Below are positions 17,501-55,194 of a stretch of 64,000 nt of DNA, one piece after another. Below the pieces are notes generated by a model, which was given only the letters and a program-made list of their open reading frames with translations, did not search any database and had not been told where the DNA came from. How positions within the stretch are numbered: position 1 is the first letter of the stretch; each line of letters starts with the position of its first letter. Both the position numbers and the translations under genes were made by a program. The DNA is taken from UHGV virus genome UHGV-0214148. One strand, 5' to 3'. This stretch comes from a virus.

Positions 17501-18683
17501 GATTATTGACGCGGCAAACATGGTGGGTATTCCGCCATCTGTTGCGATTGCGATGGCACAAGCAGAATCTGGCTTGCAGTATGGCAACTATCCTGGCGCA
17601 TCCTCTGGCAGACCGAGAAGTAATAAGATGACTGCCGCTGGCCTGTTCCAATTCACCAACGGTACTTGGAACGGGGTTATGAAGCAATACGCCCGAAGAT
17701 ACGGTATCCCACAAACCGATCAGTTCGACCCGTGGGCTAACGCAATCTTAGGTGTTAACTTCATTAGAGACAACATCAAGACCGCACAAAAGGATTTGGG
17801 TGGGATTGCCCCGCCACCGGCAGTAGCGTACCTGTACCACTTCTTAGGTCCAGGTGGCGGTGCTGAGTTCCTTAAAGCCTGGAAAACCAATCCTAACGGC
17901 TCGCCCGACAAAGTGAAGTATATTACACCTGCCGTTCTTAACGGTAACGAAGGTGTTTTCTACATCATGAACGGGAAGAAACGTGTTAGGATGCGTACGG
18001 TCGGCGAGGTTGTCGAGGAGCTGAACCGCCGTATGGGTGCGGTTGGAACTAACGAGATTGCAGCAAATCCTGCGTCTGCGAAAAACATGACAAAAGGGTT
18101 ATCTCCAGTTCCATCGTCTCCTGCAATTGCTGCGGGCGCTGCTAACGATCCGTCTATTGCTGGTCCGGCAGATAACCTACCAGCCGCGAACGAGGCGAAT
18201 CGTGACACCGCTTTAGCAGACAAAGGCGCGATGGGTGCTGAAGATATTAAAGCTGCAACGGGTGGTGGTCCGGCTGTGCCGAGTCCTGGCGGCGACGTTA
18301 CGCCGAGTGATGCGTCTGTCGTTGTAGAAACGGTGGGTAAAAATGCGCGTGCCGACGGCCTGGCCGAAGAGGAAGTTGCCAAAGTAAAAGAAGGTGCTAG
18401 ACAGCAAATGGAGAAATCCGCACGTCCTGCACCAACGGTAACGTCTGATGCACAGACTGCGCCAACAGTGAACAGCGGTGATCCGATTAGCGTACAACAG
18501 CTGGCGGTTGCAAAAGAGTCTGCGGGATATCTGAGGGAGATTGTTACAATTCTTCGTCAGCGGCCACAGGCTATGCAGCCATCCCCAGCGACCTCGGCAG
18601 CTTCTGCTCCGGGATCAGCATCACGTAACATCGCGGTTGAACAACCTGCCCGCCAACTCGATGTTGGTCGTAAACGGGCGTAA
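11517..18683 (+). CDS. giant virion-type protein with C-terminal lytic transglycosylase (SLT) domain
   Basis: 2388-aa ORF. SLT motifs AMAQAESGLQYG and AAGLFQFTNGTWNG near the C-terminus; acidic N-terminus; Arg/Lys-rich stretch; Gly/Ala-rich hydrophobic segment (LPLVGPIVSILGTVGSILG...); Ala/Pro-rich C-terminal tail. Confidence 0.8.
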   Translation: MAKKGKDDFDEIDLDNMDDWDDFDEPPRQQDQSRNPVMDTFRAARKSALSTIWPENKRDQVILKGMPKPAAEAYEGYQNVKAAGQDILAHTKDEIEKTSRVVKMQARQLGPTLKRYLPESVTRKIDKWARNDQIDYGNYDPKQAMMDRELDSVFSGAPQTADQQREMQEGMVEDRLRDTIKDMKSDALFQTVIGIAKDVNLTTSLSRGVLLNVQRKQLELQYRTLFALQDIAKLKQDEFARNTPALEAIVKNTALPDYAKEEFSEIRWANVKRKAAEWMNPLHYADNFVDQIRENAKKKISNIFSDGRGILEQVLGMAQEDDFGMSDSSSLTPDRRNTNSRNKAAGFAGGWLAKRLLQPQIERLQNWTRGELEKNPEVMKRLEKLNYIVSNKSSLSNSAIAGESSGWLADFFRLLNDVGLVNPLRRETLALDDRSAESLSAAAKFDRKAYLSITEVIPTLLSEINKSIRRGYGEHHDQVYDLTTRGMVDRKVIGNRVRKAVANDDQRKRLQTYINDTVDFIDKDKTLDRKTRQALADYIESRASEGKAFDVGSLLKDPMHMYRYMNANAVEAIQGVLEARSAELVGGHHELSNAISNKIAAIQSTIRARQDTVDAASVIYGENALRDSGIFKYDAKNDIFEVDKDINDPYTLFNDLSMGKTRSGRSLTREQEIQRKLQNGSALGDYLRRMGAGAEPSFEDKELSNVRGGGKGGRGRGLSARQLAAVLYGEKSTNFVELLSSRPDTNAGLEQQFDRLIDAVRKQSESSTVQDILKHVKNMDEEGILLASLGGSRDDGDESESSSESGRKRRRKRKRIVLGETGLLRRWAGVLWDTGSGVGRFGKNLFLRGKDRLQALGGFIRGKFSGGSSEGPGVFSRLKGLVTGTLSTGWNSAVAFGKGVLGVRDIYDERGNVVLQGSRLEAGEYYQADPKTEKLIQLKTLDDIKLGRDIVDEAGNLILAAADLAAAGKLRFYKGGKVQALFQYISGKAGTAVNKAVTLPKKLLGFISPKAASLFEKAREWLNEVPEGAEKTRLQSMISRVTGMPARLWNNAKRGFEKLKELASDNPLTRWWQNRKEGGSGGGFSVFSWSNGRKTNHILIRIYKLLNRRLPGEPEDDTWTEQMERNTGASSVKGLFQRAKDIRDGFREHFQGFRDWRGRMRDRMSRYRSAVGGRLSRWGGAARDWFDRFRGRASDMVDTFRDPRYDIGTRYRMESRLAGRDDDVAEFYRQHIYARGKVSKTRIIDAAKEDLDTVTDSAGRVINKGKQKARSVGSALLERLNRMVNLQEMSWFNTMRDSAEKAGASDGLLRTMFSKFGQRNKPPASDEKRDYFQFFRRRRRSKEEEKAKKEAEKKGGKRGVMDFLKGLPLVGPIVSILGTVGSILGKVAKWGIFKPVGFAGKALWNVGKFAVTRLAVPAVSAVATAASAVVTAVGWPIIGLVAAGAALSWFAYKTATRVNAQYLDNMRLAQYGFRDHDEWSSDDGAKARYLEDNLKPYISYTENGQAQLRGLSGDDVKKLAEGFGTNVEDKGEMLAFTAFMLQRFVPIYLRWITALKSMDNDIALADVGNPAKVSKADMLTIFNKMKMTKDAPAFKSLTDPRKVNQGWFSKAWDFVTFTPAEFLSGEEVVEAQDRVFRSINMRRDDKRKETTGAGGVPEGHKVASVAESSQVLAKNDTERNETVAKAEGWEDGTEQVQIQVDWRALPEKKDLDAMESVRWKSYGVKSVNETTRTLFRLLEKEVLKDTDIKNCIYKGDWKKAISAIAPDAIGGPKEERYKNWFYNRFLPVFMTYVYGVKRYVPHADPLDLKLTGGFLYELALMMRGAYNMKGGIRQSVWEIAFNPLGGDANTDAGSVREELATLKELSKEPDLAVRNMLKETPSTPKRMTWKSPATNSSVHQTNEDSKERYKGINSYGEASNDGYLPKGGQSYGTPGDLSQVVGDMGIGNYAKYSTGQSGITLGELQDGDYKSLVTKYPREMLGKPMQSNTEAIKSLIIDAANMVGIPPSVAIAMAQAESGLQYGNYPGASSGRPRSNKMTAAGLFQFTNGTWNGVMKQYARRYGIPQTDQFDPWANAILGVNFIRDNIKTAQKDLGGIAPPPAVAYLYHFLGPGGGAEFLKAWKTNPNGSPDKVKYITPAVLNGNEGVFYIMNGKKRVRMRTVGEVVEELNRRMGAVGTNEIAANPASAKNMTKGLSPVPSSPAIAAGAANDPSIAGPADNLPAANEANRDTALADKGAMGAEDIKAATGGGPAVPSPGGDVTPSDASVVVETVGKNARADGLAEEEVAKVKEGARQQMEKSARPAPTVTSDAQTAPTVNSGDPISVQQLAVAKESAGYLREIVTILRQRPQAMQPSPATSAASAPGSASRNIAVEQPARQLDVGRKRA

Positions 18684-33986: not shown

Positions 33987-34000
33987 GATGACTCCTTAGG

Positions 34001-34024
34001 TCGGGTAGGGTAAACCCTACCCGA
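34001..34024. terminator. stem-loop (TCGGGTAGGG / CCCTACCCGA) with T-run
   Basis: 10-bp perfect stem followed on plus by TTTATTTCTTTTT; sits just upstream of the SD of gene 33687..33986. Confidence 0.4.
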
Positions 34025-34030
34025 GCCTAT

Positions 34031-35527
34031 TTATTTCTTTTTCGTCAGGAACTTCGGTTCTAGTCCATCGACAGCCATACCCAGAATAGTACGTGCAGTC
34101 AGTGTACGTTTACCACCTTTAGTTTCCTGGTCTTTAAACATCCAGTATTCTACCGTGTTGTCCAGAATTTCATTCCAGTCCCACTTCTCGTCAATCAGTT
34201 TGTAAATCTCACCCATGCTGAGATGATACTTCATTTCAAGACGATGGTAGTTGTTTTGCATATACGCAATTGCCGCAGTGATTTCTAAAGCGCGACGTAA
34301 GCGTGCGTTATCAGAAATCATGTCGCGGATTGTCGTGCGTTGGAATTTCACACCAGGTAGAATGTCCAGTTCTTTGATGGAGCCGCCACTACCGCTTGAT
34401 GTGAAACCAAAGTCTGACTTCTTCAGCGTGTCACTTAAATAGTGCCACAGGCTCAGGTGATATAACAGACCCATTTCCTGAGAGAAGATCATCTGAAATT
34501 TCACACCGGTGTGACCACCCTTCGCACGATACTGGGTAAAGGTGATAATCTTCAAGTCGTTTACCGACGCATTCATCGCTTTAGAACGTGACGTCGGATA
34601 AAGTTCTTCGTTAACACCGGTCTGTGCGTTATAGCTCTGGTCTTTCTTCAGTTCCCCTGATTTCGTCGCGACAATAAAAGAGTTTGTTAAGAAGCTAAGC
34701 TGACGGCGAGGAATACCTGCGAATTTTAGATCGTCGTTGGCGTCGTCGAGAATTTTCGCATTTGCTTTTTGTGCCTGTCGACCACCCGCCATCGCTTTCC
34801 CAGAGTCATCGGCCATCTGTGCCACGAAGCCCATGTAAAAACCGCCGCGTGCAAACGCAGACGGCCAGCGGCTCATCATATTCGATTTTTGCAGCGCATC
34901 GTGGGCGTTCAGGATGTTCTGATCAGAATCCCCGATATCCGTTTTTGCGTGCTTGTCTTCCAGCGAACTGGAATGCCATTCTGACAGGGAGTCGATAGAA
35001 TAAAGCCAGGGGTCCAGGATTTCTTTTAACTTGCGACGAACCGGATCGGGGAACGGTGTTACACGGGTTTTACCAGACATATACTGTTTGAAGCGTTTTT
35101 CAACTTCATCACGAATATAATCACTGTAATACTGTTCCCCAGGCATTACGTCAGAACCGACCAGGTTATAACGACCTTCGTGGATAAGCTCCAGTACAGA
35201 TGTTCCGTCGTCGATACCGTTGGCGTTCATGGCAGAGATGTACCCAGTTTCTAAACGATCGAGGGCAGCGGACACTTCTGTATCGTACTTAGAACCCCAC
35301 TCTGCTTTATAACGTTGCAGGATTTGGAAGATACAGAAATCTAACAAGGTGGATTTAAAAGTGTTACCGCGACCTGCGAAACCCATGATGTGGGCAAAAC
35401 CACCGTTAAGGTAGTACAAACCATCTTCACCTTTTTCGTAGTTACCTAAGGCATGATCCATGATGGTGTAAACGTTAAAACGTGGACGAATTACTTCACC
35501 GATAACTTGCTTAGTTGGGCCTGCCAT
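34031..35527 (-). CDS. P-loop protein, possible RecA/UvsX-like recombinase
   Basis: 498-aa ORF; GGFAHIMGFAGRGNTFKSTLLDF...RYKAEWGSKYDTE resembles the Walker A region of phage UvsX (GG..LAGPSKSFKS...RQY...YDSE, from memory). Single-motif evidence. Confidence 0.4.
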   Translation of the reverse strand: MAGPTKQVIGEVIRPRFNVYTIMDHALGNYEKGEDGLYYLNGGFAHIMGFAGRGNTFKSTLLDFCIFQILQRYKAEWGSKYDTEVSAALDRLETGYISAMNANGIDDGTSVLELIHEGRYNLVGSDVMPGEQYYSDYIRDEVEKRFKQYMSGKTRVTPFPDPVRRKLKEILDPWLYSIDSLSEWHSSSLEDKHAKTDIGDSDQNILNAHDALQKSNMMSRWPSAFARGGFYMGFVAQMADDSGKAMAGGRQAQKANAKILDDANDDLKFAGIPRRQLSFLTNSFIVATKSGELKKDQSYNAQTGVNEELYPTSRSKAMNASVNDLKIITFTQYRAKGGHTGVKFQMIFSQEMGLLYHLSLWHYLSDTLKKSDFGFTSSGSGGSIKELDILPGVKFQRTTIRDMISDNARLRRALEITAAIAYMQNNYHRLEMKYHLSMGEIYKLIDEKWDWNEILDNTVEYWMFKDQETKGGKRTLTARTILGMAVDGLEPKFLTKKK

Positions 35528-35542
35528 TTAGCGCTCCGATAA

Positions 35543-35842
35543 TTAACGATTCTTGGTCGGAAGAAGAAGACGGCGGTTGTGCCAGAATTCAAAGTAGGTC
35601 TCTACCCACTCAGTAACTTCTTCCGCATTTTCAGGATAAGGGTTTTCAATAGACTCGAAACGGCGTTTATTACGCTCGTCAATTTCCAGTTCCATAACAC
35701 GTTTACCGCTCGGGCACGACGTTACGCTCAAGACTTTTCCAACTTGAATAGGTTTACCGTTCTGACCTTTTTTAACAGGCGTCAGATAAATTTCCGGTTC
35801 TAAACGCGGTGTGGTGTTTCGAGTCAGTAATTTGATTTTCAT
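35543..35842 (-). CDS. hypothetical protein
   Basis: 99-aa ORF. Confidence 0.5.
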   Translation of the reverse strand: MKIKLLTRNTTPRLEPEIYLTPVKKGQNGKPIQVGKVLSVTSCPSGKRVMELEIDERNKRRFESIENPYPENAEEVTEWVETYFEFWHNRRLLLPTKNR

Positions 35843-35940
35843 CGAGCTTTACCTTTATGGAAGAGTCTCGGTCATAAGGTTTGGGTGAACTGTAAAAAGA
35901 CTTTACTATGTAACCCTGACTTATAATCCGAGGTTTTAGA

Positions 35941-36696
35941 ATGAATGTAAATCCACTTGCAGCGTTATCTAGCTTCGCCGCTAAAGCGTCTGCAATCTTA
36001 CCGAAAGGGTTTAGCGGCCCTCAACAAGAGATTGCATTAACCACTTATGACGAGATGTCGGACGTTTCCAAGTGGATGCAACAAGAAAAATTCCTACACT
36101 TTGCGGGAATGTTGGTTATCGTTCCACCTGGGTTTAATACCTACGTGATGGATCATTTGAACCGCTTAGAATCCGTATGGAGTTCACTACAAAACATCTA
36201 TACGGGTATTCTGCTGCCGGTCGATAAACAACTTTCGGCCCTTACACATGATGTGGGGGTACTGTCATTACCGATTGGTTTCCGTTACAAAAACGTTAAT
36301 TTGCCGTTACGTAATGTTAACCCGAAAGACCTGGTTAACTTATTAGCGAAATCGTACACTAATAACGTTATTGACCAGCGACCAATTGAGAAGACGTACC
36401 ACAGCGCGTCTGAGATTGACGTTGCGTTCAATCGTGCTAAAGCCCTGAACGTTGAAATTACGAAACGTTTACGGACGAACATCGACAAGTCAATCGAGTC
36501 CATTCGCACTACGTCGGAAATCTTGTCTGAACAAAACATTCATCCGAATGTAGCAAAAGAACTGACGATGATGTTAGATTTTGCGTCCGATTGGGTGGAG
36601 CTGTTTGGTCTGTTCATGAAACAGGTTAACGAGTTAATCGAATGCCTGAACGTTACTGCCGAACGCTTAAAAGCGCTTAAGGCAAACAAAAAATAA
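35941..36696 (+). CDS. hypothetical protein
   Basis: 251-aa plus-strand ORF bounded by divergent intergenic region and bidirectional terminator. Confidence 0.55.
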   Translation: MNVNPLAALSSFAAKASAILPKGFSGPQQEIALTTYDEMSDVSKWMQQEKFLHFAGMLVIVPPGFNTYVMDHLNRLESVWSSLQNIYTGILLPVDKQLSALTHDVGVLSLPIGFRYKNVNLPLRNVNPKDLVNLLAKSYTNNVIDQRPIEKTYHSASEIDVAFNRAKALNVEITKRLRTNIDKSIESIRTTSEILSEQNIHPNVAKELTMMLDFASDWVELFGLFMKQVNELIECLNVTAERLKALKANKK

Positions 36697-36706
36697 AAAA
36701 GTAAAG

Positions 36707-36736
36707 TTACCCCTAGACCACACGGTCTAGGGGTAA
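36707..36736. terminator. bidirectional terminator between convergent genes
   Basis: 13-bp stem TTACCCCTAGACC / GGTCTAGGGGTAA with A-run before and T-run after. Confidence 0.65.
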
Positions 36737-36741
36737 ACTAT

Positions 36742-37641
36742 TTATTTCCCACGATAAAATCCAGAGATGTAACTCGGCGCTATCCATCGCCATTCGCGCC
36801 AGCGCATTTCTGACATTTTACCACACCATACACGCTTCCAATGCGCACGACGGATATGTGCGGCGCAATAAATCGCCAAACAAACCTCGTGTCCTTCCTT
36901 GCGTTGCTGCTCTATATCTTCCCATTGTACCGGACTTACATCTAAAACGACTGCTTCACTACGTGGGCGAATTTCTGTATCAGGAACATAACGAATGGAC
37001 CTTCCGCGAAATTCTTTCTTCTCGCGCTCAGTTCGTTTAATTCGTGACGAAAGATATAGCCCGATGTAGACCGCGTCGAGTAGTCGCTGATTCTCCTTAA
37101 CCGAAGTAAGGAGCGGCTTTAACTCCACGAAATCATCATTACTTTTATCGATCGTGTAAATCTCAAACTCCATGTATACCGACTCGCCATGTTCTTCGCA
37201 TGACATCACAAAGAGAACTTCTTCACCTTCGTAAAGACGTCTTCCGATAAATAACGTGATTGGACTTTCGTCGAGATTTACATTAACCGAGAAAGTAAAT
37301 GAAGGGATGGTTTCTATCCAGAAGTACGGGATATTTTTTAGTCTCTCAGTTTTTGCTAAGAGCGCCATCAGTTCTTCATCCGAGATGATTTCAACAGCAG
37401 CGTATTGCCATCCTAGTCCCAGAGACTGCTTAATCAGTCTGGGAATCTGTTCGGTAACACCATACTCACGATAGGTCGGATCTTTAACTGGCATAAACGT
37501 TACGGGTATTTGACGTTTATGCTCGTTAATGAACCGAATAAAACGACACTGATCTAATCCGTGAATTGTTTGGTGTGCCTTTTCTATTTGTTCACTCATG
37601 CGTCTTAGCGCTTTCCCGTAAAGTCTATTATTCGTTGTCAT
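36742..37641 (-). CDS. hypothetical protein, paralog of 37667..38593 (Trp/Arg-rich C-terminus)
   Basis: Start moved to internal ATG at 37641 (AGGAG SD; avoids 131-bp overlap). C-terminus AAHIRRAHWKRVW... parallels AAHIRRAHWRRYW... in the neighbour. Confidence 0.6.
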   Translation of the reverse strand: MTTNNRLYGKALRRMSEQIEKAHQTIHGLDQCRFIRFINEHKRQIPVTFMPVKDPTYREYGVTEQIPRLIKQSLGLGWQYAAVEIISDEELMALLAKTERLKNIPYFWIETIPSFTFSVNVNLDESPITLFIGRRLYEGEEVLFVMSCEEHGESVYMEFEIYTIDKSNDDFVELKPLLTSVKENQRLLDAVYIGLYLSSRIKRTEREKKEFRGRSIRYVPDTEIRPRSEAVVLDVSPVQWEDIEQQRKEGHEVCLAIYCAAHIRRAHWKRVWCGKMSEMRWREWRWIAPSYISGFYRGK

Positions 37642-37666
37642 TTTAATACTCCTAAACACTTTTAGC

Positions 37667-38593
37667 TTAATTGTGGGGTACGTAGCCACGGACAAATGTA
37701 GGTGGAATCCAACAAAGTTTTCTCTTTCTTTCACCATTTCTAGGGCCGACCCAATATCTGCGCCAGTGTGCGCGACGGATGTGGGCAGCCTTAGCATGTT
37801 TGATACCTTGCATGGTTTTCAAGTCAGTGTTAAACCCTTTTAGATAATTCACTTGTCCTGGCGTGATATCTATCTTAACATCGCGTTCACGAGGTTTAAC
37901 GTCGTAACTAATACTACCGTTCTTTTTGATTTCCTTGAACTTAATATCATTAAAAGACTCCCTGTAATTGGGCGGGATTAGCGTACACAGAAATATCATC
38001 GAAGTAGCGGCTTTGGCCAGAGATAACCATAGCATCTTTTCTTGTTCGGTCCGTACGCCAGTTGTATAATCGATTTCAACAAGCCCGTTTCCAACACTAC
38101 ATATCTCTAACGAGCAGGTGGCGATTGTGGTAACGCCTTCTGTTAACCCGTAATCAGTATTTGTAGCGATTATAATAAACCTTCTTTTCCCATTTTTTCG
38201 ATAGCCGAGAAAGAAAGTCTCATCCTCTTTACCTACGTCGATTGCTACAGTCCATGTGGGTATAAAGTCCAACCATTCTTCAGGGAATTTACTGGGCATC
38301 TCAGTCTCGAAAACAAGTTCTCTAAGTGCTTGGTTGGATATTAAGGAAGCACCACCGTATAGCCATCCAATTGCCAATGTTTGAGCGTGAAGGGAACGGG
38401 GATCTTTGAGACCTAACTCAGCGTCGTAAGGTATAAAGGCATTGGTTAAATGGTTACGATTCTTTTTTATCCATTTCGAGACAGGATTTTCCTTTATTCG
38501 GTTTTCTTCCATGACATTTTCAAGATGCTGAGACCCCATTTGTCTAAGGCAGTCTTTAATACCTTTTACTTTTTTACTTTTGTACAAATACAT
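37667..38593 (-). CDS. hypothetical protein, paralog of 36742..37641
   Basis: 308-aa ORF; shared internal blocks (LGLGWQYAA / LAIGWLYGG) and C-terminal AAHIRRAHW motif. Confidence 0.6.
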   Translation of the reverse strand: MYLYKSKKVKGIKDCLRQMGSQHLENVMEENRIKENPVSKWIKKNRNHLTNAFIPYDAELGLKDPRSLHAQTLAIGWLYGGASLISNQALRELVFETEMPSKFPEEWLDFIPTWTVAIDVGKEDETFFLGYRKNGKRRFIIIATNTDYGLTEGVTTIATCSLEICSVGNGLVEIDYTTGVRTEQEKMLWLSLAKAATSMIFLCTLIPPNYRESFNDIKFKEIKKNGSISYDVKPRERDVKIDITPGQVNYLKGFNTDLKTMQGIKHAKAAHIRRAHWRRYWVGPRNGERKRKLCWIPPTFVRGYVPHN

Positions 38594-38627
38594 GGTTTAT
38601 TCTCCTAAAATGGTTAAAAACAAAGTA

Positions 38628-38647
38628 ACCCTAGCCGAAGCTAGGGT
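38628..38647 (-). terminator. stem-loop terminator (ACCCTAGC / GCTAGGGT)
   Basis: 8-bp stem, CGAA loop, A-rich plus-side flank. Confidence 0.5.
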
Positions 38648-38652
38648 GTCTA

Positions 38653-39141
38653 TTAGTCGATTTTGACGTAATCAGGATAATTAGCTTTTAGCCACTCCCA
38701 TAGTTGCAGAGCAAGTTGGTTTTCGTTACGCTTGATGATTTCTACGATTTCGTTCAAGAGAGAGTCTTCAACCCAAATCCGGGTATAAAATTTTTCCCAT
38801 TCCGGTTCTGTATAAGGGACTAGCGGAGTAGGGAATCGACCCATGTGGTACGCATCAGAAACTTTCTTTAAGAACTCGTTGCGACCATGGCGTAGACGTT
38901 GCCGAACGTCTGTTTCTGTCATGCGCTTGCTTGATGGATCGAAGAAGTCAAGTATGATAAATATGTATCCAAATAAGCTCTGAGAAGAAAAGTAGGACGC
39001 GGCGTAGTCCGCCATCCAGGGAGTGTCTACAACCAACGGAGTCAACTTTTCTTCAATTTCTTTTCTTACACGTGTTCCGTTATTGAGAAATTCATGTACG
39101 AAATCGGTGTCACGAATATCGAAGTTATGATTTAAGTTCAT
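38653..39141 (-). CDS. hypothetical protein
   Basis: 162-aa ORF. Confidence 0.55.
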   Translation of the reverse strand: MNLNHNFDIRDTDFVHEFLNNGTRVRKEIEEKLTPLVVDTPWMADYAASYFSSQSLFGYIFIILDFFDPSSKRMTETDVRQRLRHGRNEFLKKVSDAYHMGRFPTPLVPYTEPEWEKFYTRIWVEDSLLNEIVEIIKRNENQLALQLWEWLKANYPDYVKID

Positions 39142-39142
39142 T

Positions 39143-39667
39143 TTATTGTCCTAAAATTGGGGAGAGTTTGTCTGCGGTGTTTAACAACGCTTTTGTAATT
39201 TCGTGGTTGGTCTCTTTTAGGATGACGCAGCAGAGAGTGGTATAAACCTCGATTGCTAACGTGATTTCTTGTTCAGTCAGACACGGTTCGGTACCGCCAA
39301 CCCCATAACGTTGCGCCGCATACTCAATTTCAAGTTTCAAACGTTTTCGTAGTGCCTCGTCATCAGTTAAACGCGTACACGCCCGATCGAAACGTCTATT
39401 GTAAGCCTCGATCTTGTGGACAATTTCGCGTCGCAGTTGGTCGACATTTACGTTATCATCAAGAGTGATGGTGACGTTGTCAACTAAACAGTAATGCACT
39501 GTGTGTCGTAAGTTGTGCAATGTGGCGACAGTAACGACCCGCTCCTGATGGTCGCTAAAGCCGTGAGCACCACAGAGCTTGCGTGCAACTGCGCCGGAGA
39601 TTTTCTCCTCTAGCGCTATCGGTGTGGCAATGGTTGTTTTCTTACGAAGCTGAATTAAAATATCCAC
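39143..39667 (-). CDS. hypothetical protein
   Basis: 174-aa ORF, coupled. Confidence 0.55.
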   Translation of the reverse strand: MDILIQLRKKTTIATPIALEEKISGAVARKLCGAHGFSDHQERVVTVATLHNLRHTVHYCLVDNVTITLDDNVNVDQLRREIVHKIEAYNRRFDRACTRLTDDEALRKRLKLEIEYAAQRYGVGGTEPCLTEQEITLAIEVYTTLCCVILKETNHEITKALLNTADKLSPILGQ

Positions 39668-39669
39668 GA

Positions 39670-40212
39670 TTATACTCCTTTAGGTTGACCGTATTTTGAT
39701 GACAGGTAGATGAGCTCAGCATGGCAGATTTTCTCAACTAACCCGAGTGTCTCAAGGAAAATATCCCGGATACGGGACATTGTTTCGTTGGTAAGAATAT
39801 CGCTCCAACACGTTGTGTCTATTATATCCGTCGTTGAAGATTGTCGCTGCAGTATGGCGACATACACTTCGTCGAGGGTATCTGGAGCATTATTCTGTAA
39901 GTAATGCGCGGCATGTAGAAAGGCTTTCTCAAGAATCAGGTGAATATCCGTATCGGGATCAGTTACCCGCACCAAATGTGGGTATGTCATGGCCGAATGG
40001 ATTTTTCGCTCTAACTGTTCAATGAGATTATTCACCATCGCTTCTGAATCCAGGATAGTAATTTCGACCCCACTGTGTTCTTCAGAAATCTTGTTCTCAT
40101 GTACTGCTATCGCGTCGTGCAGTTCAAACGCAACGCGGCTACGCATCCCACTTAACAGTTTGTTTAATTTGCCCCGTGACTCGCTGAGTGAGAAATCGAT
40201 AAGTATTTTCAT
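39670..40212 (-). CDS. hypothetical protein
   Basis: 180-aa ORF, coupled. Confidence 0.55.
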   Translation of the reverse strand: MKILIDFSLSESRGKLNKLLSGMRSRVAFELHDAIAVHENKISEEHSGVEITILDSEAMVNNLIEQLERKIHSAMTYPHLVRVTDPDTDIHLILEKAFLHAAHYLQNNAPDTLDEVYVAILQRQSSTTDIIDTTCWSDILTNETMSRIRDIFLETLGLVEKICHAELIYLSSKYGQPKGV

Positions 40213-40213
40213 G

Positions 40214-40951
40214 TTAATAGCCCTGATAAATGATGTCGTCGCGGTCTTTACGTAACTGGCAGTATGTTACGTCAGCACCGTTAGGGATTTGTACGCCAGC
40301 GTCTTCAAGATAAATAACACCAGTCTGATTACAGAAATAAAAAGACCACAAGTACGGATTGCCTTGACAACTGTTTTCACGATGATCGAAGGGCCAATAG
40401 CCTCGATACAATTCGTCGTAATCACCGCGCTCGATACCAAAAGCAATCATTTCTTTTTCCCACAATCTGCTTTCGGCGTCGTAAATCGAAAACCAGAAAC
40501 CGACGAGGTTCTTTGTCCGTTTAACGTTCATTAAGTCGTTATAAATGGGGTAGAGTGCTTTATTGAAACTTTCTAACAACTCTGGAGAGAGTAGAAAGTT
40601 CACGTAGTATTCTAGCCATTGATAAACGGCTTCCCAGACATCTTCAGAAGAGAAATGCTCGAATACGGCGTCATCACAATCGTAGTTATCGAAGACCCCT
40701 GAGAGATCTATTATGACGTCGCGAAGGTCAAAGTTTCGGTTGGTATTGACAGCCTCAATAACTTCGGAGATAAGGCGAGTAAAGACGTTTGTGCAGGCAG
40801 TCTGTGCGGTATAAAAGAATTCTCCTTGTACGGTTGACCACTTCGGGTCCTTCAAATGTTCATTGAAGTATTGTGGCCAAATTTTATAAAAGATTCCCTC
40901 GAACAACGAGGGGTTGATACGTTGTAATTGAGGGACATAAACTTTTAGCAT
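40214..40951 (-). CDS. hypothetical protein
   Basis: 245-aa ORF; GGAG SD; AT-rich motif just upstream. Confidence 0.55.
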   Translation of the reverse strand: MLKVYVPQLQRINPSLFEGIFYKIWPQYFNEHLKDPKWSTVQGEFFYTAQTACTNVFTRLISEVIEAVNTNRNFDLRDVIIDLSGVFDNYDCDDAVFEHFSSEDVWEAVYQWLEYYVNFLLSPELLESFNKALYPIYNDLMNVKRTKNLVGFWFSIYDAESRLWEKEMIAFGIERGDYDELYRGYWPFDHRENSCQGNPYLWSFYFCNQTGVIYLEDAGVQIPNGADVTYCQLRKDRDDIIYQGY

Positions 40952-40973
40952 TTTAATAACTCCAATGGTGTTA

Positions 40974-40999
40974 CACCTGGATAATATCTATCTAAGAAT
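40974..40999. promoter_or_regulatory. AT-rich promoter-like motif CACCTGGATAATATCTATCTAAGAAT
   Basis: Related to the 616/59101/63484 copies; upstream of gene 40214..40951, overlapping the stop of 40988..41656. Confidence 0.35.
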
Positions 41000-41656
41000 A
41001 TTTTTAGCGAAAAAAGGATCGACTATAAACTCCTTCACCTGTGAGTCATAACCCGAATGTATTTGATCGCTACTGAGCAAATACCCGTCTAAATCGTGTG
41101 GAAGAATCCAAGAATCCCCCTGTTTAAAAATACCATAATCTGTTGTTCCAGAGGAAAAAACGATTTCCTCTGGAGAGGAATAGATGTGGCGTAAGGCAAG
41201 ATCGGACGGCTTTAACACGATTAATCGAACGGGATGTTGACTGACTGCCTCTTTAATAAACTGTTCACGATTAAAGCAAATTATTTTTTCGGGGTAAGTT
41301 TCGAATTCAGCCCATGTCCGCCTGATAACTAATTTGGAAATCTTTCTCAATTCTTCAGAATGCTCTGCGTAGCCGATACACTCCTTGCGTACTTCATGAT
41401 TTTCTACCGATGCTGCGAATTTTTGGAATAGGTGTTGTTGGAAAAAGCCGTTCTCCGGGATATCACAACCTGCGTTGTATAGTGCAATGATCTCCCACAA
41501 CAACGAAAGAGAAAACACAAATGCTAACTTTTCCACCACTTCCCAATCTTCGGAGTAAGGGGCTTTAAAGCCCCAATACTGCCGTGCGTTATACATAAAG
41601 TGAGTTTGTAAAAACCGAGGGGCTTTTGACAAGACCTCACTATAAACGATCAGCAT
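40988..41656 (-). CDS. hypothetical protein
   Basis: 222-aa ORF. Confidence 0.55.
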   Translation of the reverse strand: MLIVYSEVLSKAPRFLQTHFMYNARQYWGFKAPYSEDWEVVEKLAFVFSLSLLWEIIALYNAGCDIPENGFFQQHLFQKFAASVENHEVRKECIGYAEHSEELRKISKLVIRRTWAEFETYPEKIICFNREQFIKEAVSQHPVRLIVLKPSDLALRHIYSSPEEIVFSSGTTDYGIFKQGDSWILPHDLDGYLLSSDQIHSGYDSQVKEFIVDPFFAKNILR

Positions 41657-43170
41657 TCAAGCTCCTTATCCGTCAATATTCGTTTGTTTGAATAATAGCC
41701 GCACCACAACCCATGATATTTTTCCCCGATATAAACCAACGCATATTCGATATACTGCCGTTCTGGACGCCGTACCGCCACGTAGAATCGTCCTTCTGGT
41801 TCTTTCATACGGTTGATTTCCGTACGCGTCGGTATGTCGATACCTCGAGTAAGGATAGTTTTAACCTTGTTTTTGCTACCAGGGATATGGATGGTTACGT
41901 CAAAACCTTTATCTACGTTACGATAAAAGTCTTTCTTCGGCTTACCTTTCTCATCGTAAAGCAGGTCAGTAATGTCGTTCATTACGACTGAGTTTTTCCC
42001 CTCCATGGCATCGCGTAACCAACCTGCAAGCTCATCACGAATCGTAATGCAGCGATAAGACAATAACGCGGGACGAAGAATTCGTGTAATCGAAAGATCT
42101 TCAAACATCCACAGGTTTTTGTCTTCGCTAAAATGCATCCGATCGATAGGAATACCGTTAGCTGCGGCTTCTGCGAACTTTTTACGCTTTACGAATAAGT
42201 TAAATACAACGGCGATGGGATCAAATTGACGTAAACGGGGCACCCCTTCCCACGCTTTCGCAGAGTGGGTATTTACTAACTCGTATACGTTATCCCACGG
42301 TTCTTTGGTAAACATTACGCAGAATTGTGCGTCTGGAATGTACTTACCAACGAAGACGATATCGTCCTTCTGTTTTGCATGGTTCCCACCGAACATGTAA
42401 TAAAGTTTATTACCGTTAACCGTAACCGTGGGATGGGGTTCGTTCACCATCGGGTAACAGAACTTCGTAACACAGATATCGGGAAAGGCAGACAAATTGA
42501 CACCTTCACCAACAACTTCTGGTTGCTGATCTTCCTCAGGCATCTCGTCTTTTGACCAATACGGTGTATAGTCTAGCCCATCGCCTCGTGCCGAGATACT
42601 TGAACCCTTCCGTGCTAACTCGTCGGCACGTTCGTTTCCATAGCGTCCTGAGTGCCCTTTAATTTTAAGGACACGAACACCTTTCCCTTCTTTCTTTAAC
42701 CGCTGTTTAACCTCCCACATCCGTTGGATTAATTCCAAGTTCGCAATAGGCGTACCGTCAGCACGACGCCAACCGCGTGCAGCCCAACCATCAATCCAAT
42801 CGTTATACGTGTTGACAACGTAAGATGCGTCGATATAGATAACATAGTTTTTGGCAACGAAAGGTGCGTGTTCGAAAACGGTCAGGAGAGCCACGAGTTC
42901 TGCAACGTCGGAGTGTGACATTTTTGGTACAGGCACAACACCGTCAATAAACTCCACGGTTTCAGGTAAAGGTGGAAGTTTTTCATCCTTGTTTATCTGG
43001 CGGTATCCTGACGTCGTAATCCCCTCGGGAATAGAGGGATGGCGATAAACCCGACCATCCTCAATCGCTTCACGATTAAATAAGTATCCATGAATCCCCG
43101 CTCCTGTACCGAGCGGGGAGGTCAAATGGCTACCATCCGTGTAAATTACTGCAACATCAACGTTCTTCAT
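41650..43170 (-). CDS. RNase H (RNase HI-type) domain protein with about 300-aa C-terminal extension
   Basis: 506-aa ORF; VAVIYTDGS ... YVIYIDASYVVN ... KGHSGRYGNERADELARKG match RNase HI catalytic motifs. Confidence 0.8.
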   Translation of the reverse strand: MKNVDVAVIYTDGSHLTSPLGTGAGIHGYLFNREAIEDGRVYRHPSIPEGITTSGYRQINKDEKLPPLPETVEFIDGVVPVPKMSHSDVAELVALLTVFEHAPFVAKNYVIYIDASYVVNTYNDWIDGWAARGWRRADGTPIANLELIQRMWEVKQRLKKEGKGVRVLKIKGHSGRYGNERADELARKGSSISARGDGLDYTPYWSKDEMPEEDQQPEVVGEGVNLSAFPDICVTKFCYPMVNEPHPTVTVNGNKLYYMFGGNHAKQKDDIVFVGKYIPDAQFCVMFTKEPWDNVYELVNTHSAKAWEGVPRLRQFDPIAVVFNLFVKRKKFAEAAANGIPIDRMHFSEDKNLWMFEDLSITRILRPALLSYRCITIRDELAGWLRDAMEGKNSVVMNDITDLLYDEKGKPKKDFYRNVDKGFDVTIHIPGSKNKVKTILTRGIDIPTRTEINRMKEPEGRFYVAVRRPERQYIEYALVYIGEKYHGLWCGYYSNKRILTDKELEC

Positions 43171-43172
43171 TC

Positions 43173-43907
43173 TTAATCCCTGGTTAATTGATCACGAATC
43201 TGCGGCGCAACATACTCGCCCGTTTTCAGTTCTTCGTGACAGGCTTTGGCGCGTTCAAACCCGTATTGGCGAGTGACCAAAGCGAGGTGGTAAATACGTG
43301 CCGTGGTGTAGGCTTCTTTTGCTGCATCCCACATTGCATGGTGCTCAAAAGCGGGCTTACCGCGTGTCCAGTAAATTTGCTCTACGGTTAGGTCAGGCTC
43401 GAACCCAAATGCAAAGGCTAAACGTTCTGCGGTACGATCGCTATCCAGTGCACTGAATTTACGGAACTTCCCTGGCGGAATATCACATTGTGCGAATGCG
43501 TTCATGAAAATCGGCGCATCGAAGTCAGGACCACGCATGGTAATAACAAACTCGTGTTTTGCGGTGATCTCCCCGAGCCATTTTTGCATCGCCCACAGCG
43601 CGTCTGGCAATGCTGTTGTCCCACCCCATGCCTCCGCATAAGCTTCACGAGACGGTGCGTATTCGGGTTCGCCTTTACCTTCCCACCAACCGACGGTTTG
43701 TGGGTCTTCGTGGAAAATGGCTTTTGCTTTAGGATCGTTAGGATCGATCCTGATGTATGAGGAACCGACCATTTTCAATGTAGGGACGTCAAAAGCCACT
43801 AAACCCGCACTTAACAGATAAGCATCGGGACGTAATGATTTGGTTTCAGCATCAGCGCCAATAACCAGCGTCGGAGTGTACGGGGTGACAATTTTTGGGT
43901 AGGTCAT
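43173..43907 (-). CDS. DEDDh-type 3'-5' exonuclease
   Basis: 244-aa ORF; LVIGADAETKS (Exo I D-x-E) and FEHHAMWDAAKEAY (Exo III H-x4-D). Confidence 0.65.
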   Translation of the reverse strand: MTYPKIVTPYTPTLVIGADAETKSLRPDAYLLSAGLVAFDVPTLKMVGSSYIRIDPNDPKAKAIFHEDPQTVGWWEGKGEPEYAPSREAYAEAWGGTTALPDALWAMQKWLGEITAKHEFVITMRGPDFDAPIFMNAFAQCDIPPGKFRKFSALDSDRTAERLAFAFGFEPDLTVEQIYWTRGKPAFEHHAMWDAAKEAYTTARIYHLALVTRQYGFERAKACHEELKTGEYVAPQIRDQLTRD

Positions 43908-52470: not shown

Positions 52471-52656
52471 CTAATTCCGCCATTCGCATTCGCGTTGACG
52501 CCAAATTGAACCCCACGATAGTTTAATCAGATAAGATGAAACTACCCATAAAATCATCACCACACAAAACATGACATAAAGAACCGCTAGAATGGACATG
52601 AAGCCAAACCCTGCCGCATCCACAATACGACGGAACCAATCAGTTTGCATAAACAA
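52471..52656 (-). CDS. small membrane protein (61 aa)
   Basis: Track ORF; long hydrophobic core FGFMSILAVLYVMFCVVMILWVVSSYLI; GAAGGAG SD. Confidence 0.45.
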   Translation of the reverse strand: MFMQTDWFRRIVDAAGFGFMSILAVLYVMFCVVMILWVVSSYLIKLSWGSIWRQRECEWRN

Positions 52657-55144
52657 TTTTTACTCCTTCGTTATACACCGCAGGCAATGTCACCCCTTCC
52701 GGTTCGATGACACAGTACGATGCTTCATTAAGTTTAGAATGAACCTCGGCTTCGTGGGAGACTACCAACAGTTGGGAAAATTCTCCCGAGTTTGCTAACG
52801 TTTTAATAAAGCCGACCAGGTTGTTACGGTGCTCCTCATCCATGCCTTCCGAAGGCTCATCCAAAAGCAACGGAAACTGATGCAACTTCAGCGCTTTGTA
52901 CGCAGTCAGCCTGAACATCAGATTAAATATCGCACGCTGCGCCTTAGATCCTTTACGCACGTCAGGAACAGGCTCAGGATGCGTTTTTAGCTGGACAGGA
53001 AAAGTATAATCCAAATCGCCGTCAGTGAGGTCACAAGGCATAACGCGCATGGGGTACGTCCAGACTTGTTCGATATAACGCGTCATTAACTCTGTGATTC
53101 TAACGATAGCGTTGTAAAAATACTTTCTAAGTACACCCTTTTCTGGCGAGAAGGCTTGAATCATCAGTTTGTTATTGAACTGCTGGGCTTGTAAGTCAGC
53201 AAGTTCGCGTTCCAAACTGTTGAGCTGATTCAATTCATTTTCCATCTGACGATAACGTTCGCGTGCGGTTGTAAAAGCATCCAGCTTCCCTTCTCGAGCA
53301 CGTAAGAGTTCCTCGACGACTGTATTTGTCAACGTAACCTTAACATCACTCTCTAGCCGTTCGAATAACGCACTGAAATCATCTACAGCACGTTTAACAT
53401 TCACCAGATAGGTAAGTGTCGTGTTAGCCAGTTCGTGCTCTCTACGACGCATTGAGAGCATTTCTGTGGCTTTACCTAATCGCGACTGTTGGAAGGCGAT
53501 TTTCTGTTGTAAAGCGCCATCGACGTTACCAACGGCCGCTACGGCATCCTGCCATTCTTTTTCCGCCTTCACTAACCGTTGTCGGGTTTCATGATACTCA
53601 ATAGCAGAGTACAACTCGCTGTCAAACGCTGCGCATAGACTCCCGAACTGTTCACGTGATTCAGTGAAGACGTTACGTTCTTGCAAACGCTTAAAGAACA
53701 TGCTCAATACCGGGTCCTTTGAATACGTCAGTACAATCTCACGAACCTGCCGCATATAAGTTACATCAGATTCTAATTCAACACGATAGCGTAATAGGGC
53801 CTCTAACTGTGTTTGCAGTTCCGTGCGCTGCTGTTGTTGTCCGCGAATCGAAGACTCAAGTTCAGGTAAAGAACGCGTAACACCGGGCCGAAACTTAAAC
53901 CGACACTGCGGGCAATCCACTTCCGCTGTTTCTAAGTAGTGATTACGCTCGTGATTTAAATTCTGTAAAACGTTCTCCACTCGCTGGAGTCTATCCCGCA
54001 ACCCTGCGGTTTTTTGATCCATCACCAGAAGCCGTTCTTCCAAAACATTGAGTTTTTCGGTTGAATGAATTGCGTCCAGCGTTGTTCCTAACCGTTGCCC
54101 CCAGACACGCGCGTCGGTAGCCGCACGAAGTTGGTCTAAATTGACGTTGTCGTTAAATAGACCCGGAAAGAGATGCTCGGTGTCCCATTTGGTAAGTAAC
54201 TCACGTAAACGCGCCAATGTATTCTTGAGACCTTCGTGATTCCGCATCAGGTAGTCTTGTCGTGTTGACTCATCCATCAATAACGACAAGTCTTTATTCA
54301 ACATCGATACCTCTGTTTCAGTAGACACGACAGCTTCGCGGGCCGTCGCTTCGTTTTGTCGCGCGACCAGTATCTGTTCATCGGTAGGCAGGCCACCACG
54401 ATGTTGTAATATTGCGTCGATGGTTGGGCCCAAGCTGTTTAATAACGCTTGGATTGTTTCGATGGTGACGGCACGATTTAATCCTGGCAACTGTTCGATT
54501 TCTCGGTTCAATTCACGTAAATCCGATTCCAAACCTTTTAATCTCGTCGCTAACTGCTGCCGTTCTTCCTCGTTCTCAATAACACGCGTCCGTAATTCGG
54601 CGATCTTGCGGCTGGTGATTTCAATACCCCCATTTAAGGCAGTAAGGTTTTTACGTAAACGTTGATAAAACCCTAACGCGTAAGTGAGGTCAGAGGTACT
54701 TAAACGGTAAAACCATTTGCGGCGTAATTCGGTTCCCGCATCGGTTAACAACACCTCACCATTTAATAGTTCTTTAATCTCTTTCGTAATACCCGTGATT
54801 TCTTCAACACGGGAGTTGTAGACTTTCGCATTACCTTGCTCGACGATCTTTGTCCCCGTGGTCAGGTTCTCAATATCGCAAACCAAAGAGTTGCCTTTAC
54901 GGGCAACTTTGAATCGATAGCGTTGATCGCCAACTAAACAGTAGTTCGTGTAAGAACCGCCGTCCCTGAATTCAGTTTTAGCTGGTGCTAAGGGTAAGAA
55001 CACAGACAGTAGACTGGTTTTCCCGCAGCCGTTCCCACCCAGGATAATTGTTGTCGGAGACTGGATAGTGAAATCGAAGGTTTCAATTTCATGTAACCCC
55101 ATCCCCGTAAAACCTTTGAGTATAATGCGTTCAACTTTTAGCAT
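52640..55144 (-). CDS. Rad50/SbcC-like SMC-family ATPase
   Basis: Walker A GGNGCGKTS at N-terminus; long coiled-coil centre with CPQC zinc-hook-like motif; C-terminal LLLDEPSEGMDEEH (Walker B) and VVSHEAE. Start set to ATG at 55144 (GGAGGTG SD). Confidence 0.75.
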   Translation of the reverse strand: MLKVERIILKGFTGMGLHEIETFDFTIQSPTTIILGGNGCGKTSLLSVFLPLAPAKTEFRDGGSYTNYCLVGDQRYRFKVARKGNSLVCDIENLTTGTKIVEQGNAKVYNSRVEEITGITKEIKELLNGEVLLTDAGTELRRKWFYRLSTSDLTYALGFYQRLRKNLTALNGGIEITSRKIAELRTRVIENEEERQQLATRLKGLESDLRELNREIEQLPGLNRAVTIETIQALLNSLGPTIDAILQHRGGLPTDEQILVARQNEATAREAVVSTETEVSMLNKDLSLLMDESTRQDYLMRNHEGLKNTLARLRELLTKWDTEHLFPGLFNDNVNLDQLRAATDARVWGQRLGTTLDAIHSTEKLNVLEERLLVMDQKTAGLRDRLQRVENVLQNLNHERNHYLETAEVDCPQCRFKFRPGVTRSLPELESSIRGQQQQRTELQTQLEALLRYRVELESDVTYMRQVREIVLTYSKDPVLSMFFKRLQERNVFTESREQFGSLCAAFDSELYSAIEYHETRQRLVKAEKEWQDAVAAVGNVDGALQQKIAFQQSRLGKATEMLSMRRREHELANTTLTYLVNVKRAVDDFSALFERLESDVKVTLTNTVVEELLRAREGKLDAFTTARERYRQMENELNQLNSLERELADLQAQQFNNKLMIQAFSPEKGVLRKYFYNAIVRITELMTRYIEQVWTYPMRVMPCDLTDGDLDYTFPVQLKTHPEPVPDVRKGSKAQRAIFNLMFRLTAYKALKLHQFPLLLDEPSEGMDEEHRNNLVGFIKTLANSGEFSQLLVVSHEAEVHSKLNEASYCVIEPEGVTLPAVYNEGVKIVYAN

Positions 55145-55194
55145 ACCCACCTCCATAAAGACGGAGTGTGGTGTAAAAAGAAAAAAATAAAGAA

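What the first reader, a model, noticed from the sequence alone, without database searches (positions are those of the whole stretch)
36742..38593. Paralog pair ending in a basic Trp/Arg-rich tail (AAHIRRAHW[KR]R.W)
Two adjacent proteins (about 299 and 308 aa) share internal blocks and end in AAHIRRAHWKRVWCGKMSEMRWREWRWIAPSYISGFYRGK and AAHIRRAHWRRYWVGPRNGERKRKLCWIPPTFVRGYVPHN. The very basic, Trp-rich C-terminus looks like a nucleic-acid or membrane interaction module, and I do not recognise it. The start of the first gene required correction to avoid a 131-bp overlap.
Basis: seen in the sequence. Interest (0 to 1): 0.45.

Follow-up and report, generated by a model that had tools for sequence, protein, structure and literature searches.

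The report
Tandem AcrVA2/FinQ-like genes in jumbo phage
The two adjacent genes are real paralogs, and their basic Trp/Arg-rich ending is the conserved signature of the known AcrVA2/FinQ protein family, which mobile elements use to switch off a chosen target gene by destroying its messenger RNA, so this is a divergent new member pair and not a new kind of module.

Summary
Two minus-strand genes, B (37667-38593, 308 aa) and A (36742-37641, 299 aa after start correction), are paralogs (BLASTP E=6e-23) and share a C-terminal HIRRAHW...W.G...W tail.

The tail is not unknown. It is the hallmark of the AcrVA2-like family (Pfam PF26125), which includes the plasmid fertility inhibitor FinQ.
- A family profile built from relatives of A and B hits the AcrVA2 crystal structure 7ci1 at E=9.7e-39 over its full length.
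- The three residues essential for AcrVA2 activity (H286, R288, H291) are invariant in all 46 family sequences aligned and are present in both A and B.

The genes lie in a phiKZ-like jumbo phage related to Chimalliviridae, probably infecting Enterobacter. They sit in a conserved slot between the RNase H and UvsX genes. Erwinia phage Asesino has one copy there; this clade has a tandem pair.

The N-terminal two thirds of B are exchanged by recombination between near-identical phages, while the C-terminal third stays constant.

Most likely function: target-specific, translation-coupled mRNA silencing of two unknown targets that are probably not Cas12a. This is a new member of a known kind, of modest interest.

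The parts
37667..38593 (-). Gene B, 308 aa, AcrVA2-like/FinQ-family protein. Helical N-terminal domain, beta-sheet middle domain (aa ~115-205, the variable part), and a four-stranded C-terminal module carrying H271-x-R273-x-x-H276-W277, W281, G283 and W295.
36742..37641 (-). Gene A, 299 aa (corrected start), the second AcrVA2-like/FinQ-family paralog, with H262-x-R264-x-x-H267-W and W78/D88 equivalents of AcrVA2 W79/D89.
37642..37797 (-). Upstream extension of the maximal ORF of A. It is not coding for A and overlaps the 3' end of B by 131 bp.
38628..38647 (-). Terminator-like hairpin (ACCCTAGC-TTCG-GCTAGGGT followed by a T-rich run) between the upstream 162-aa gene and B. It marks the 5' boundary of the B-A unit.
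   Evidence: Conserved in relatives, with a fully compensated different stem in L008.
36707..36736 (.). Bidirectional terminator-like hairpin (13-bp stem) between the stop of A and the convergent 251-aa gene.
   Evidence: Conserved in relatives, with a compensated different stem in Erwinia phage Asesino.

Best explanation
Genes A and B encode two very divergent members of the AcrVA2-like/FinQ family (Pfam PF26125), carried as a tandem duplicate in a phiKZ-like jumbo phage of Enterobacterales. Family membership, the shared three-domain fold, conservation of the functionally essential His-x-Arg-x-x-His motif, and the tandem duplication are shown here. The mechanism is inferred by analogy with AcrVA2 and FinQ. 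In that model the N-terminal and middle domains of each protein recognise a specific target polypeptide, probably as it emerges from the ribosome, and the constant C-terminal beta module with the His/Arg/His residues then causes loss of that target's mRNA. The two paralogs share only about 25% identity outside the tail. The N-terminal two thirds of B are swapped by recombination between otherwise near-identical phages. I therefore infer that the two proteins silence two different targets, and that the variable part sets specificity. The targets are most likely host defence or other host or rival-element proteins and not Cas12a, which this family's hosts usually lack.
For: - **Family assignment by Pfam.** The precomputed Pfam hit PF26125 'AcrVA2-like' (unmarked, so E<=1e-5) lies on both genes of the orthologous pair in seven related contigs and on P0001-P0005.
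- **Sequence links to AcrVA2.** phmmer of B against PDB hits AcrVA2 7ci1_A at E=3.6e-4. BLASTP of B against AcrVA2 residues 7-318 gives E=1e-8 over almost the full length. A profile of 46 diverse relatives of A and B, gathered at E 1e-39 to 5e-6 against 1.84 billion proteins, hits 7ci1_A at E=9.7e-39, positions 10-301 against 7-318.
- **Motif.** H271, R273, H276, W281, G283 and W295 (B numbering) are invariant in 46 of 46 sequences. They correspond to AcrVA2 H286, R288 and H291, whose alanine mutants keep Cas12a binding but lose mRNA downregulation. The W79 equivalent is kept in both proteins.
- **FinQ link.** AcrVA2 tblastn finds annotated finQ in hundreds of conjugative plasmids. B against FinQ gives E=9e-9 at the C-terminus.
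- **Bridging by jumbo phages.** AcrVA2 hits Erwinia jumbo phages directly, including Y3, RisingSun and several pEa_SNUABM phages. B hits related ~260-kb Erwinia pEa_SNUABM and Dickeya AD1 jumbo phages, though no accession appears in both printed lists.
- **Both copies look functional.** dN/dS is below 1 throughout, and all invariant residues are retained.
- **Modular exchange.** L007 and L001 have a near-identical backbone (dS 0.03-0.17). Yet the 162-aa gene plus B aa 1-205 show dS of about 1.3-1.4, while B aa 206-311 show dS 0.23. The highest dN/dS, 0.33-0.41, falls in aa 121-205.
Against: - No function has been measured for any jumbo-phage member of the family.
- The biochemical mechanism of the family itself is unresolved. 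It is not known whether the tail is an RNase, a ribosome binder or a recruiter.
- The direct sequence link is weak. The narrow-clade profile hits AcrVA2 only at E=0.039 and only at the C-terminus. A alone gives E=1e-3 against AcrVA2 and FinQ. Structural identity is only 10-11%.
- Foldseek did not retrieve 7ci1.
- The gene occupies a conserved slot in the replication/recombination module of several jumbo-phage genera. That placement is more typical of a housekeeping gene than of an accessory anti-defence gene.
- B has Asn at the position of AcrVA2 D89, whose mutation caused a moderate defect.
- The variable block in B shows high dS with dN/dS below 1. This indicates allele import by recombination and not demonstrable positive selection.
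Confidence: 0.6

Rival explanations
1. The proteins are AcrVA2-family members that serve the phage's own programme and not counter-defence. Examples would be translation-coupled decay of particular phage early mRNAs for temporal control, or of abundant host mRNAs for host shut-off.
For: The gene sits in a fixed syntenic slot (RNase H ... gene ... convergent 251-aa gene, 99-aa gene, UvsX) in the window, in seven related contigs and in Erwinia phage Asesino. Homologs occur in 21 or more Enterobacterales jumbo phages. The A alleles are 98-99% identical across seven relatives, which argues for strong purifying selection and against an arms race.
Against: The experimentally studied members, AcrVA2 and FinQ, act on foreign or rival targets. 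B and the neighbouring 162-aa gene are recombination-swapped hypervariable loci in otherwise near-identical phages, a pattern typical of host-interaction genes. The window's A allele is only 62-63% identical to all the others.
Confidence: 0.2
2. They are bona fide anti-CRISPRs that silence Cas12a, like AcrVA2 itself.
For: They share the family, fold and essential motif with AcrVA2. Huge-phage proteins clustering with AcrVA2 have been proposed as Acrs (bioRxiv 10.1101/572362).
Against: Identity to AcrVA2 is only 10-23%, and the recognition domains are barely alignable. Marino et al. report that family members are typically found where Cas12a is absent and that FinQ acts on F-plasmid transfer genes. 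The likely hosts are Enterobacterales, in which type V-A systems are not a usual feature; that last point is from my own knowledge and was not tested here.
Confidence: 0.07
3. One reading: a previously unknown protein pair whose basic Trp/Arg-rich tail is a generic nucleic-acid-binding or membrane-binding appendage.
For: The tail is very basic (pI 11.3-11.8, 10 K+R in 40 residues) and Trp-rich. The local Pfam, NCBIfam and PADLOC scans gave no significant hit.
Against: The conservation is of exact residues (H, R, H, W, G, W invariant in 46 of 46) and not of composition. The tail is predicted to be a folded four-stranded module, as in the AcrVA2 crystal structure. Family membership is shown by profile and fold. 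The local Pfam copy simply lacks PF26125, since 0 of 46 family members hit anything. There is no hydrophobic or amphipathic membrane segment.
Confidence: 0.03

Closest known systems
AcrVA2 (Moraxella bovoculi prophage anti-CRISPR; PDB 7ci1/7ci2; Pfam PF26125 AcrVA2-like)
   Different: Only 10-23% identity. The recognition domains are barely alignable. The genes are in a lytic jumbo phage of Enterobacterales and not a Moraxella prophage. There is no adjacent acrVA1. They are present as a tandem paralog pair. The target is almost certainly not Cas12a, and no function has been tested.
FinQ (fertility inhibitor of IncI-type conjugative plasmids; lowers F-plasmid transfer-gene mRNA)
   Same: Same family: AcrVA2 tblastn hits annotated finQ at E=3e-11 with 88% coverage. 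The C-terminal motif KRPHIRRGHWHTYWTG...LIWLPP is shared (B against FinQ E=9e-9). It is found in Enterobacterales mobile elements and acts against a non-CRISPR target.
   Different: FinQ is plasmid-borne, single copy and longer (363-aa ORF). Pairwise similarity to A and B is confined to the tail and a short W...D...P segment.
Erwinia phage vB_EamM_Asesino gp235 and homologs in Salmonella SaP7/JN03, E. coli EC001/Lh1B and Erwinia ChrisDB/pEa_SNUABM phages (PHROG 6160, all annotated 'hypothetical protein')
   Same: These are the closest cultured-phage relatives: 24-30% identity over more than 80% of the length at E down to 1e-22. Asesino gp235 occupies the same syntenic slot, with the same tail.
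   Different: tblastn found one matching place in each of these records. The window's clade carries a tandem duplicate.

Membership tests
AcrVA2-like / FinQ family (Pfam PF26125) | Significant match to the family sequence profile | tested here: met
   Precomputed PF26125 hits (unmarked, so E<=1e-5) lie on the orthologs of both A and B. The profile of A, B and 44 relatives hits AcrVA2 7ci1_A at E=9.7e-39 over its full length. BLASTP of B against AcrVA2 gives E=1e-8. Caveats: the local Pfam copy lacks the model, and the narrow-clade profile gives only E=0.039.
AcrVA2-like / FinQ family (Pfam PF26125) | AcrVA2 fold: helical N-terminal domain, beta-sheet middle domain, four-stranded C-terminal domain | tested here: met
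   [not shown]
AcrVA2-like / FinQ family (Pfam PF26125) | Conserved C-terminal H-x-R-x-x-H motif (AcrVA2 H286/R288/H291, essential for mRNA downregulation) | tested here: met
   B has H271/R273/H276 and A has H262/R264/H267. These residues are invariant in 46 of 46 and 50 of 50 aligned family sequences. Functional data are from bioRxiv 10.1101/2022.11.29.518452.
AcrVA2-like / FinQ family (Pfam PF26125) | Conserved N-terminal-domain W79 and D89 (moderate-effect residues in AcrVA2) | tested here: inconclusive
   The Trp is kept in both (B W77, A W78; nearly invariant). The Asp is kept in A and in B orthologs P0002 and P0003, but it is Asn87 in the window's B and in P0001.
AcrVA2-like / FinQ family (Pfam PF26125) | Carried on a mobile genetic element | tested here: met
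   The window is a phiKZ-like jumbo phage, with split RNAP beta subunits, UvsX and RNase H, and is syntenic with Erskinevirus, family Chimalliviridae.
AcrVA2-like / FinQ family (Pfam PF26125) | Translation-dependent loss of a specific target mRNA after binding the target polypeptide | not testable with these tools
   This requires expression, RNA-seq and pull-down experiments. It has been shown only for AcrVA2 and suggested for FinQ.
Anti-CRISPR type V-A (functional class) | Inhibits Cas12a, with Cas12a present in the host | not tested
   No host genome is available. The likely hosts are Enterobacterales. The family is usually found without Cas12a. I do not file the pair as an Acr.

The most novel reading that the evidence does not exclude
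Chimalliviridae-related (presumably nucleus-forming) jumbo phages carry a two-gene cassette of nascent-peptide-guided mRNA silencers. A constant C-terminal effector module (His-x-Arg-x-x-His) is combined with exchangeable N-terminal and middle recognition modules that recombination shuffles between phages. This would let the phage re-aim translation-coupled mRNA destruction at different cytoplasmic host defence proteins, a counter-defence layer suited to phages whose DNA is already shielded.
Probability: 0.25. Interest if true: 0.6.

Novelty: new member of a known kind. Interest (0 to 1): 0.3.

Why it matters
AcrVA2 is so far the only prokaryotic protein reported to destroy a specific mRNA after recognising the protein being translated from it. 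Its family is large: 610 clusters at 50% identity in my search, about 1,800 orthologs in Marino et al., and finQ on hundreds of plasmids. Its targets outside Cas12a and F-plasmid transfer genes are unknown.

This locus adds a natural pair of highly divergent paralogs with an identical effector motif. It also adds natural chimeras, in the form of B alleles that differ only in the first ~205 residues. Together these make a convenient system for asking which part sets specificity and what such proteins target in Enterobacterales.

It also gives a name to about 40 'hypothetical protein' genes in cultured Erwinia, Salmonella, Escherichia and Dickeya jumbo phages. The finding does not reveal a new kind of module.

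Tried and rejected
- Local Pfam-A scan of A, B, P0001-3 and all 46 family members gave no hit. The local copy evidently lacks PF26125, so these negatives say nothing.
- NCBIfam gave no hit.
- PADLOC gave only chance-level Csm5 hits at E of about 0.02 for A. I rejected these.
- Megablast of the locus against the phage collection gave no match, so there is no close cultured relative.
- The search for homologous proteins gave only 3-8 hits even with profiles. The exhaustive profile search was needed.
- The listing of cluster members yielded no informative names beyond 'hypothetical protein ASESINO_235'.
- A literature search for 'AcrVA2-like' found no papers.
- I tested for in-situ positive selection in B. 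dN/dS is below 1 in every region, and the divergent block has saturated-range dS, so the variability reflects recombinational allele import and not demonstrable positive selection.
- I looked for further paralogs among the neighbouring genes and in the whole window and found none.
- The membrane-interaction idea was rejected, because the tail has no hydrophobic segment and is predicted to be a folded beta module.

Full report
**1. Observation**

The window holds two adjacent minus-strand ORFs.
- B runs 37667..38593 and is 308 aa.
- The maximal ORF of A runs 36742..37797, is 351 aa, and overlaps B by 131 bp.
- The internal ATG of A at 37641 lies 7 nt downstream of an AGGAG Shine-Dalgarno sequence and 25 nt after the stop of B. 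It gives a 299-aa protein.
- Orthologs called independently in other assemblies start at the same position: P0004 is 299 aa and starts MITNNRLY, and P0005 is 294 aa. B also has an AGGAG sequence before its ATG.

The quoted C-termini are exact. The two proteins are clear paralogs. BLASTP gives E=6e-23 with 25% identity across 286 columns, and both match PHROG 6160, a family of unknown function. The last 40 residues are very basic, with pI 11.3 and 11.8 and 10 K+R each, and carry 5 and 3 Trp. A family-profile scan of the six-frame translation of the whole window finds only these two copies.

**2. What the tail is**

*First clue and literature.* A phmmer search of B against PDB sequences gave one meaningful hit, the anti-CRISPR AcrVA2 (7ci1_A), at E=3.6e-4. 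B residues 259-302 aligned to chain residues 275-317, and HIRRAHWRRYWVG aligned to HIRRGHWHGYWQG. Marino et al. (bioRxiv 10.1101/2022.11.29.518452) report the following about AcrVA2.
- H286A, R288A and H291A mutants still bind Cas12a but no longer lower its mRNA.
- H286 and R288 are conserved across about 1,800 orthologs on plasmids and megaphages, usually in hosts without Cas12a.
- The plasmid fertility inhibitor FinQ is a homolog.

After allowing for a one-residue offset in the PDB chain numbering, these three residues are B H271/R273/H276 and A H262/R264/H267.

*Membership tests.*
- **Pfam.** The database's precomputed annotation gives PF26125 'AcrVA2-like', unmarked and therefore at E<=1e-5. 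It lies on P0001-P0005 and on both genes of the orthologous pair in seven related contigs. The local Pfam copy returns nothing for any of 46 family members. It therefore lacks this model, and my early negatives carry no information.
- **Exhaustive profile search.** A search with the seven clade sequences against 1.84 billion representatives found 610 clusters at E<=1e-3. Most are 300-380 aa, and many of the top hits align over most of their length.
- **Family alignment.** An alignment of 46 of these, with A and B included, has M1, H271, R273, H276, W281, G283 and W295 as its only invariant columns. Its profile hits 7ci1_A at E=9.7e-39, profile positions 10-301 against chain residues 7-318.
- **Direct pairwise comparison.** BLASTP of B against AcrVA2 residues 7-318 gives E=1e-8 and 23% identity over about 300 residues.
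- **Architecture.** Both models show a helical N-terminal domain, a beta-sheet middle domain followed by a long helix, and four short C-terminal strands. This matches the published description of the AcrVA2 architecture.
- **Tail motif across the family.** H-x-R-[RKC]-[AGS]-H-[WFY]-x-x-x-W-x-G...W is present in 46 of 46 family sequences. The family tail averages 7.2 K+R and 3.0 Trp.

*Caveats.*
- These are extreme members of the family.
- The narrow-clade profile alone reaches AcrVA2 only at E=0.039, and only at the C-terminus.
- A alone gives E=1e-3 against AcrVA2 and FinQ.
- Foldseek failed to find 7ci1.

The convergence of independent lines (Pfam, transitive profile, pairwise BLASTP, fold, invariant functional residues) still makes membership secure.

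**3. Context and distribution**

The window is part of a phiKZ-like jumbo phage. It carries the following.
- Split RNA polymerase beta-subunit genes at 5692-9858 and 9868-11487
- A UvsX-like recombinase at 34031-35527
- RNase H at 41650-43170
- An exonuclease at 43173-43907
- An SbcC-like gene at 52640-55156

There is no close cultured relative. The nearest sequences are metagenomic contigs of 200-224 kb. Another is a 222-kb circular 'plasmid' of Enterobacter ludwigii, NZ_CP134650.1, which is collinear with the phage locus. That record is probably a jumbo phage genome, and it points to an Enterobacter host.

In all seven related contigs the tandem pair (310/311 aa plus 294 aa) is present in the same slot. 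The gene order is RNase H, five small unknown genes, B, A, a convergent 251-aa gene, a 99-aa gene, then UvsX. Erwinia phage Asesino (Erskinevirus, Chimalliviridae) has one copy, gp235, in the same slot. tblastn with A and with B finds a single place in each of 21 Erwinia, Salmonella, Escherichia and Dickeya jumbo-phage records, nearly all annotated 'hypothetical protein' (one record has no annotation at the site).

AcrVA2 itself hits 20 Erwinia jumbo phages directly, and also Moraxella, Shewanella, Leptospira, Pasteurella and Lactobacillus phages. It hits 594 plasmid records, mostly annotated finQ on conjugative plasmids. The duplication is therefore specific to this clade and predates its diversification, since A-type and B-type orthologs form separate groups.

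The B-A pair is bracketed by terminator-like hairpins: 38628-38647 upstream of B, and a bidirectional 13-bp stem at 36707-36736 after A. Both are conserved in relatives. L008 and Asesino have fully compensated alternative stems.

**4. Variation**

*Gene B.* Contigs L007, L010 and L001 share an almost identical backbone, with 98-100% protein identity and dS 0.03-0.17 in flanking genes. Their B proteins are only 70-73% identical.
- The divergent block covers the upstream 162-aa gene and B residues 1-205, with dS of about 1.3-1.4.
- B residues 206-311 have dS 0.23 and are 96-100% identical across all eight orthologs.
- dN/dS is below 1 everywhere and peaks at 0.33-0.41 in residues 121-205.

This pattern indicates allele replacement by recombination, with a breakpoint between the variable recognition part and the constant C-terminal third. 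It is not demonstrable in-situ positive selection.

*Mapping of the variable block.* Residues 121-205 form the middle-domain beta-sheet and the start of the long helix. By my sequence mapping, two of the three AcrVA2 residues reported to contact a Cas12a peptide (D129 and D195) fall in or at the edge of this block. This mapping is approximate and is an inference.

*Gene A.* The window's B is 92-95% identical to one allele type, although its backbone is more distant (84-97%). The window's A is only 62-63% identical to all other A alleles, which are 98-99% identical to one another.

**5. Mechanism**

*Shown here.*
- Family membership
- The fold
- The invariant effector motif in both copies
- Purifying selection on both copies
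- Modular variation

*Inferred by analogy with AcrVA2 and FinQ.* Each protein binds a specific target polypeptide through its N-terminal and middle domains, probably co-translationally. Its C-terminal His/Arg/His beta module then causes loss of the target mRNA. Two divergent recognition parts imply two targets.

*Targets.* Cas12a is unlikely to be the target. The hosts are Enterobacterales, the family is usually found without Cas12a, and the recognition domains are barely alignable with those of AcrVA2.

*Open question.* How the tail works is unknown even for AcrVA2. No other PDB fold resembles these models, so no nuclease fold can be invoked.

*Main rival.* The gene could have a housekeeping or host-takeover role, given its fixed position in the replication/recombination module and the near-identity of most A alleles.

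**6. Verdict**

I rate this as a new member of a known kind. It is a very divergent, tandemly duplicated AcrVA2/FinQ-like pair in a jumbo phage. The modestly interesting twist is that the recognition part is exchanged by recombination while the effector part stays fixed. Interest is 0.3.

Noticed in passing
L004 (NZ_CP134650.1, 25517-42434); compare window 34000-43900: The 222,441-bp circular, non-mobilizable 'plasmid unnamed1' of Enterobacter ludwigii 51A:C is collinear gene for gene with this jumbo-phage locus (RNase H, small genes, the AcrVA2-like pair, UvsX-like 498-aa gene).
   Followed up: partly
window 38653-39141 (-); L008 1941-2426 and 2456-2941: The 162-aa gene of unknown function directly upstream of B is the most variable gene of the locus. 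It is 43% identical between the window and L007, and 71% between L007 and L001, whose backbones are about 100% identical. It is co-swapped with the first 205 codons of B and is tandemly duplicated in L008. It has no PHROG, Pfam or PADLOC match.
   Followed up: partly
L011 (NZ_CP049180.1) 418-1509: The RefSeq finQ CDS is annotated as 259 aa (L011 730-1509). The ORF is 363 aa from an ATG at 418, and homology to AcrVA2 already begins at 601. The annotated start of FinQ is therefore probably too far downstream in this record, and possibly in others.
   Followed up: partly
Erwinia phage vB_EamM_RisingSun MF459646.1 128488-129120: The AcrVA2-like hit (E=2e-7) in this jumbo phage is annotated 'putative mycothiosynthase', which is probably a misannotation.
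   Followed up: no
window 38628-38647 and 36707-36736; L008 ~2945-2970; L005 ~6812-6836: The hairpins flanking the B-A unit are conserved across relatives. Where the sequence differs (L008 upstream hairpin, Asesino downstream hairpin) both arms change together and keep the stem, which supports real terminators. The stretch TTAACCATTTTAGGAG between the upstream hairpin and the start of B is invariant in all six sequences compared.
   Followed up: partly
[not shown]
   Followed up: yes
window 5692-9858 (-), 9868-11487 (-), 11517-18683 (+): Split multisubunit RNA polymerase beta-subunit genes (PHROG 3148 and 2986), typical of phiKZ-like jumbo phages, lie next to a 2388-aa ORF that I did not examine.
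   Followed up: no
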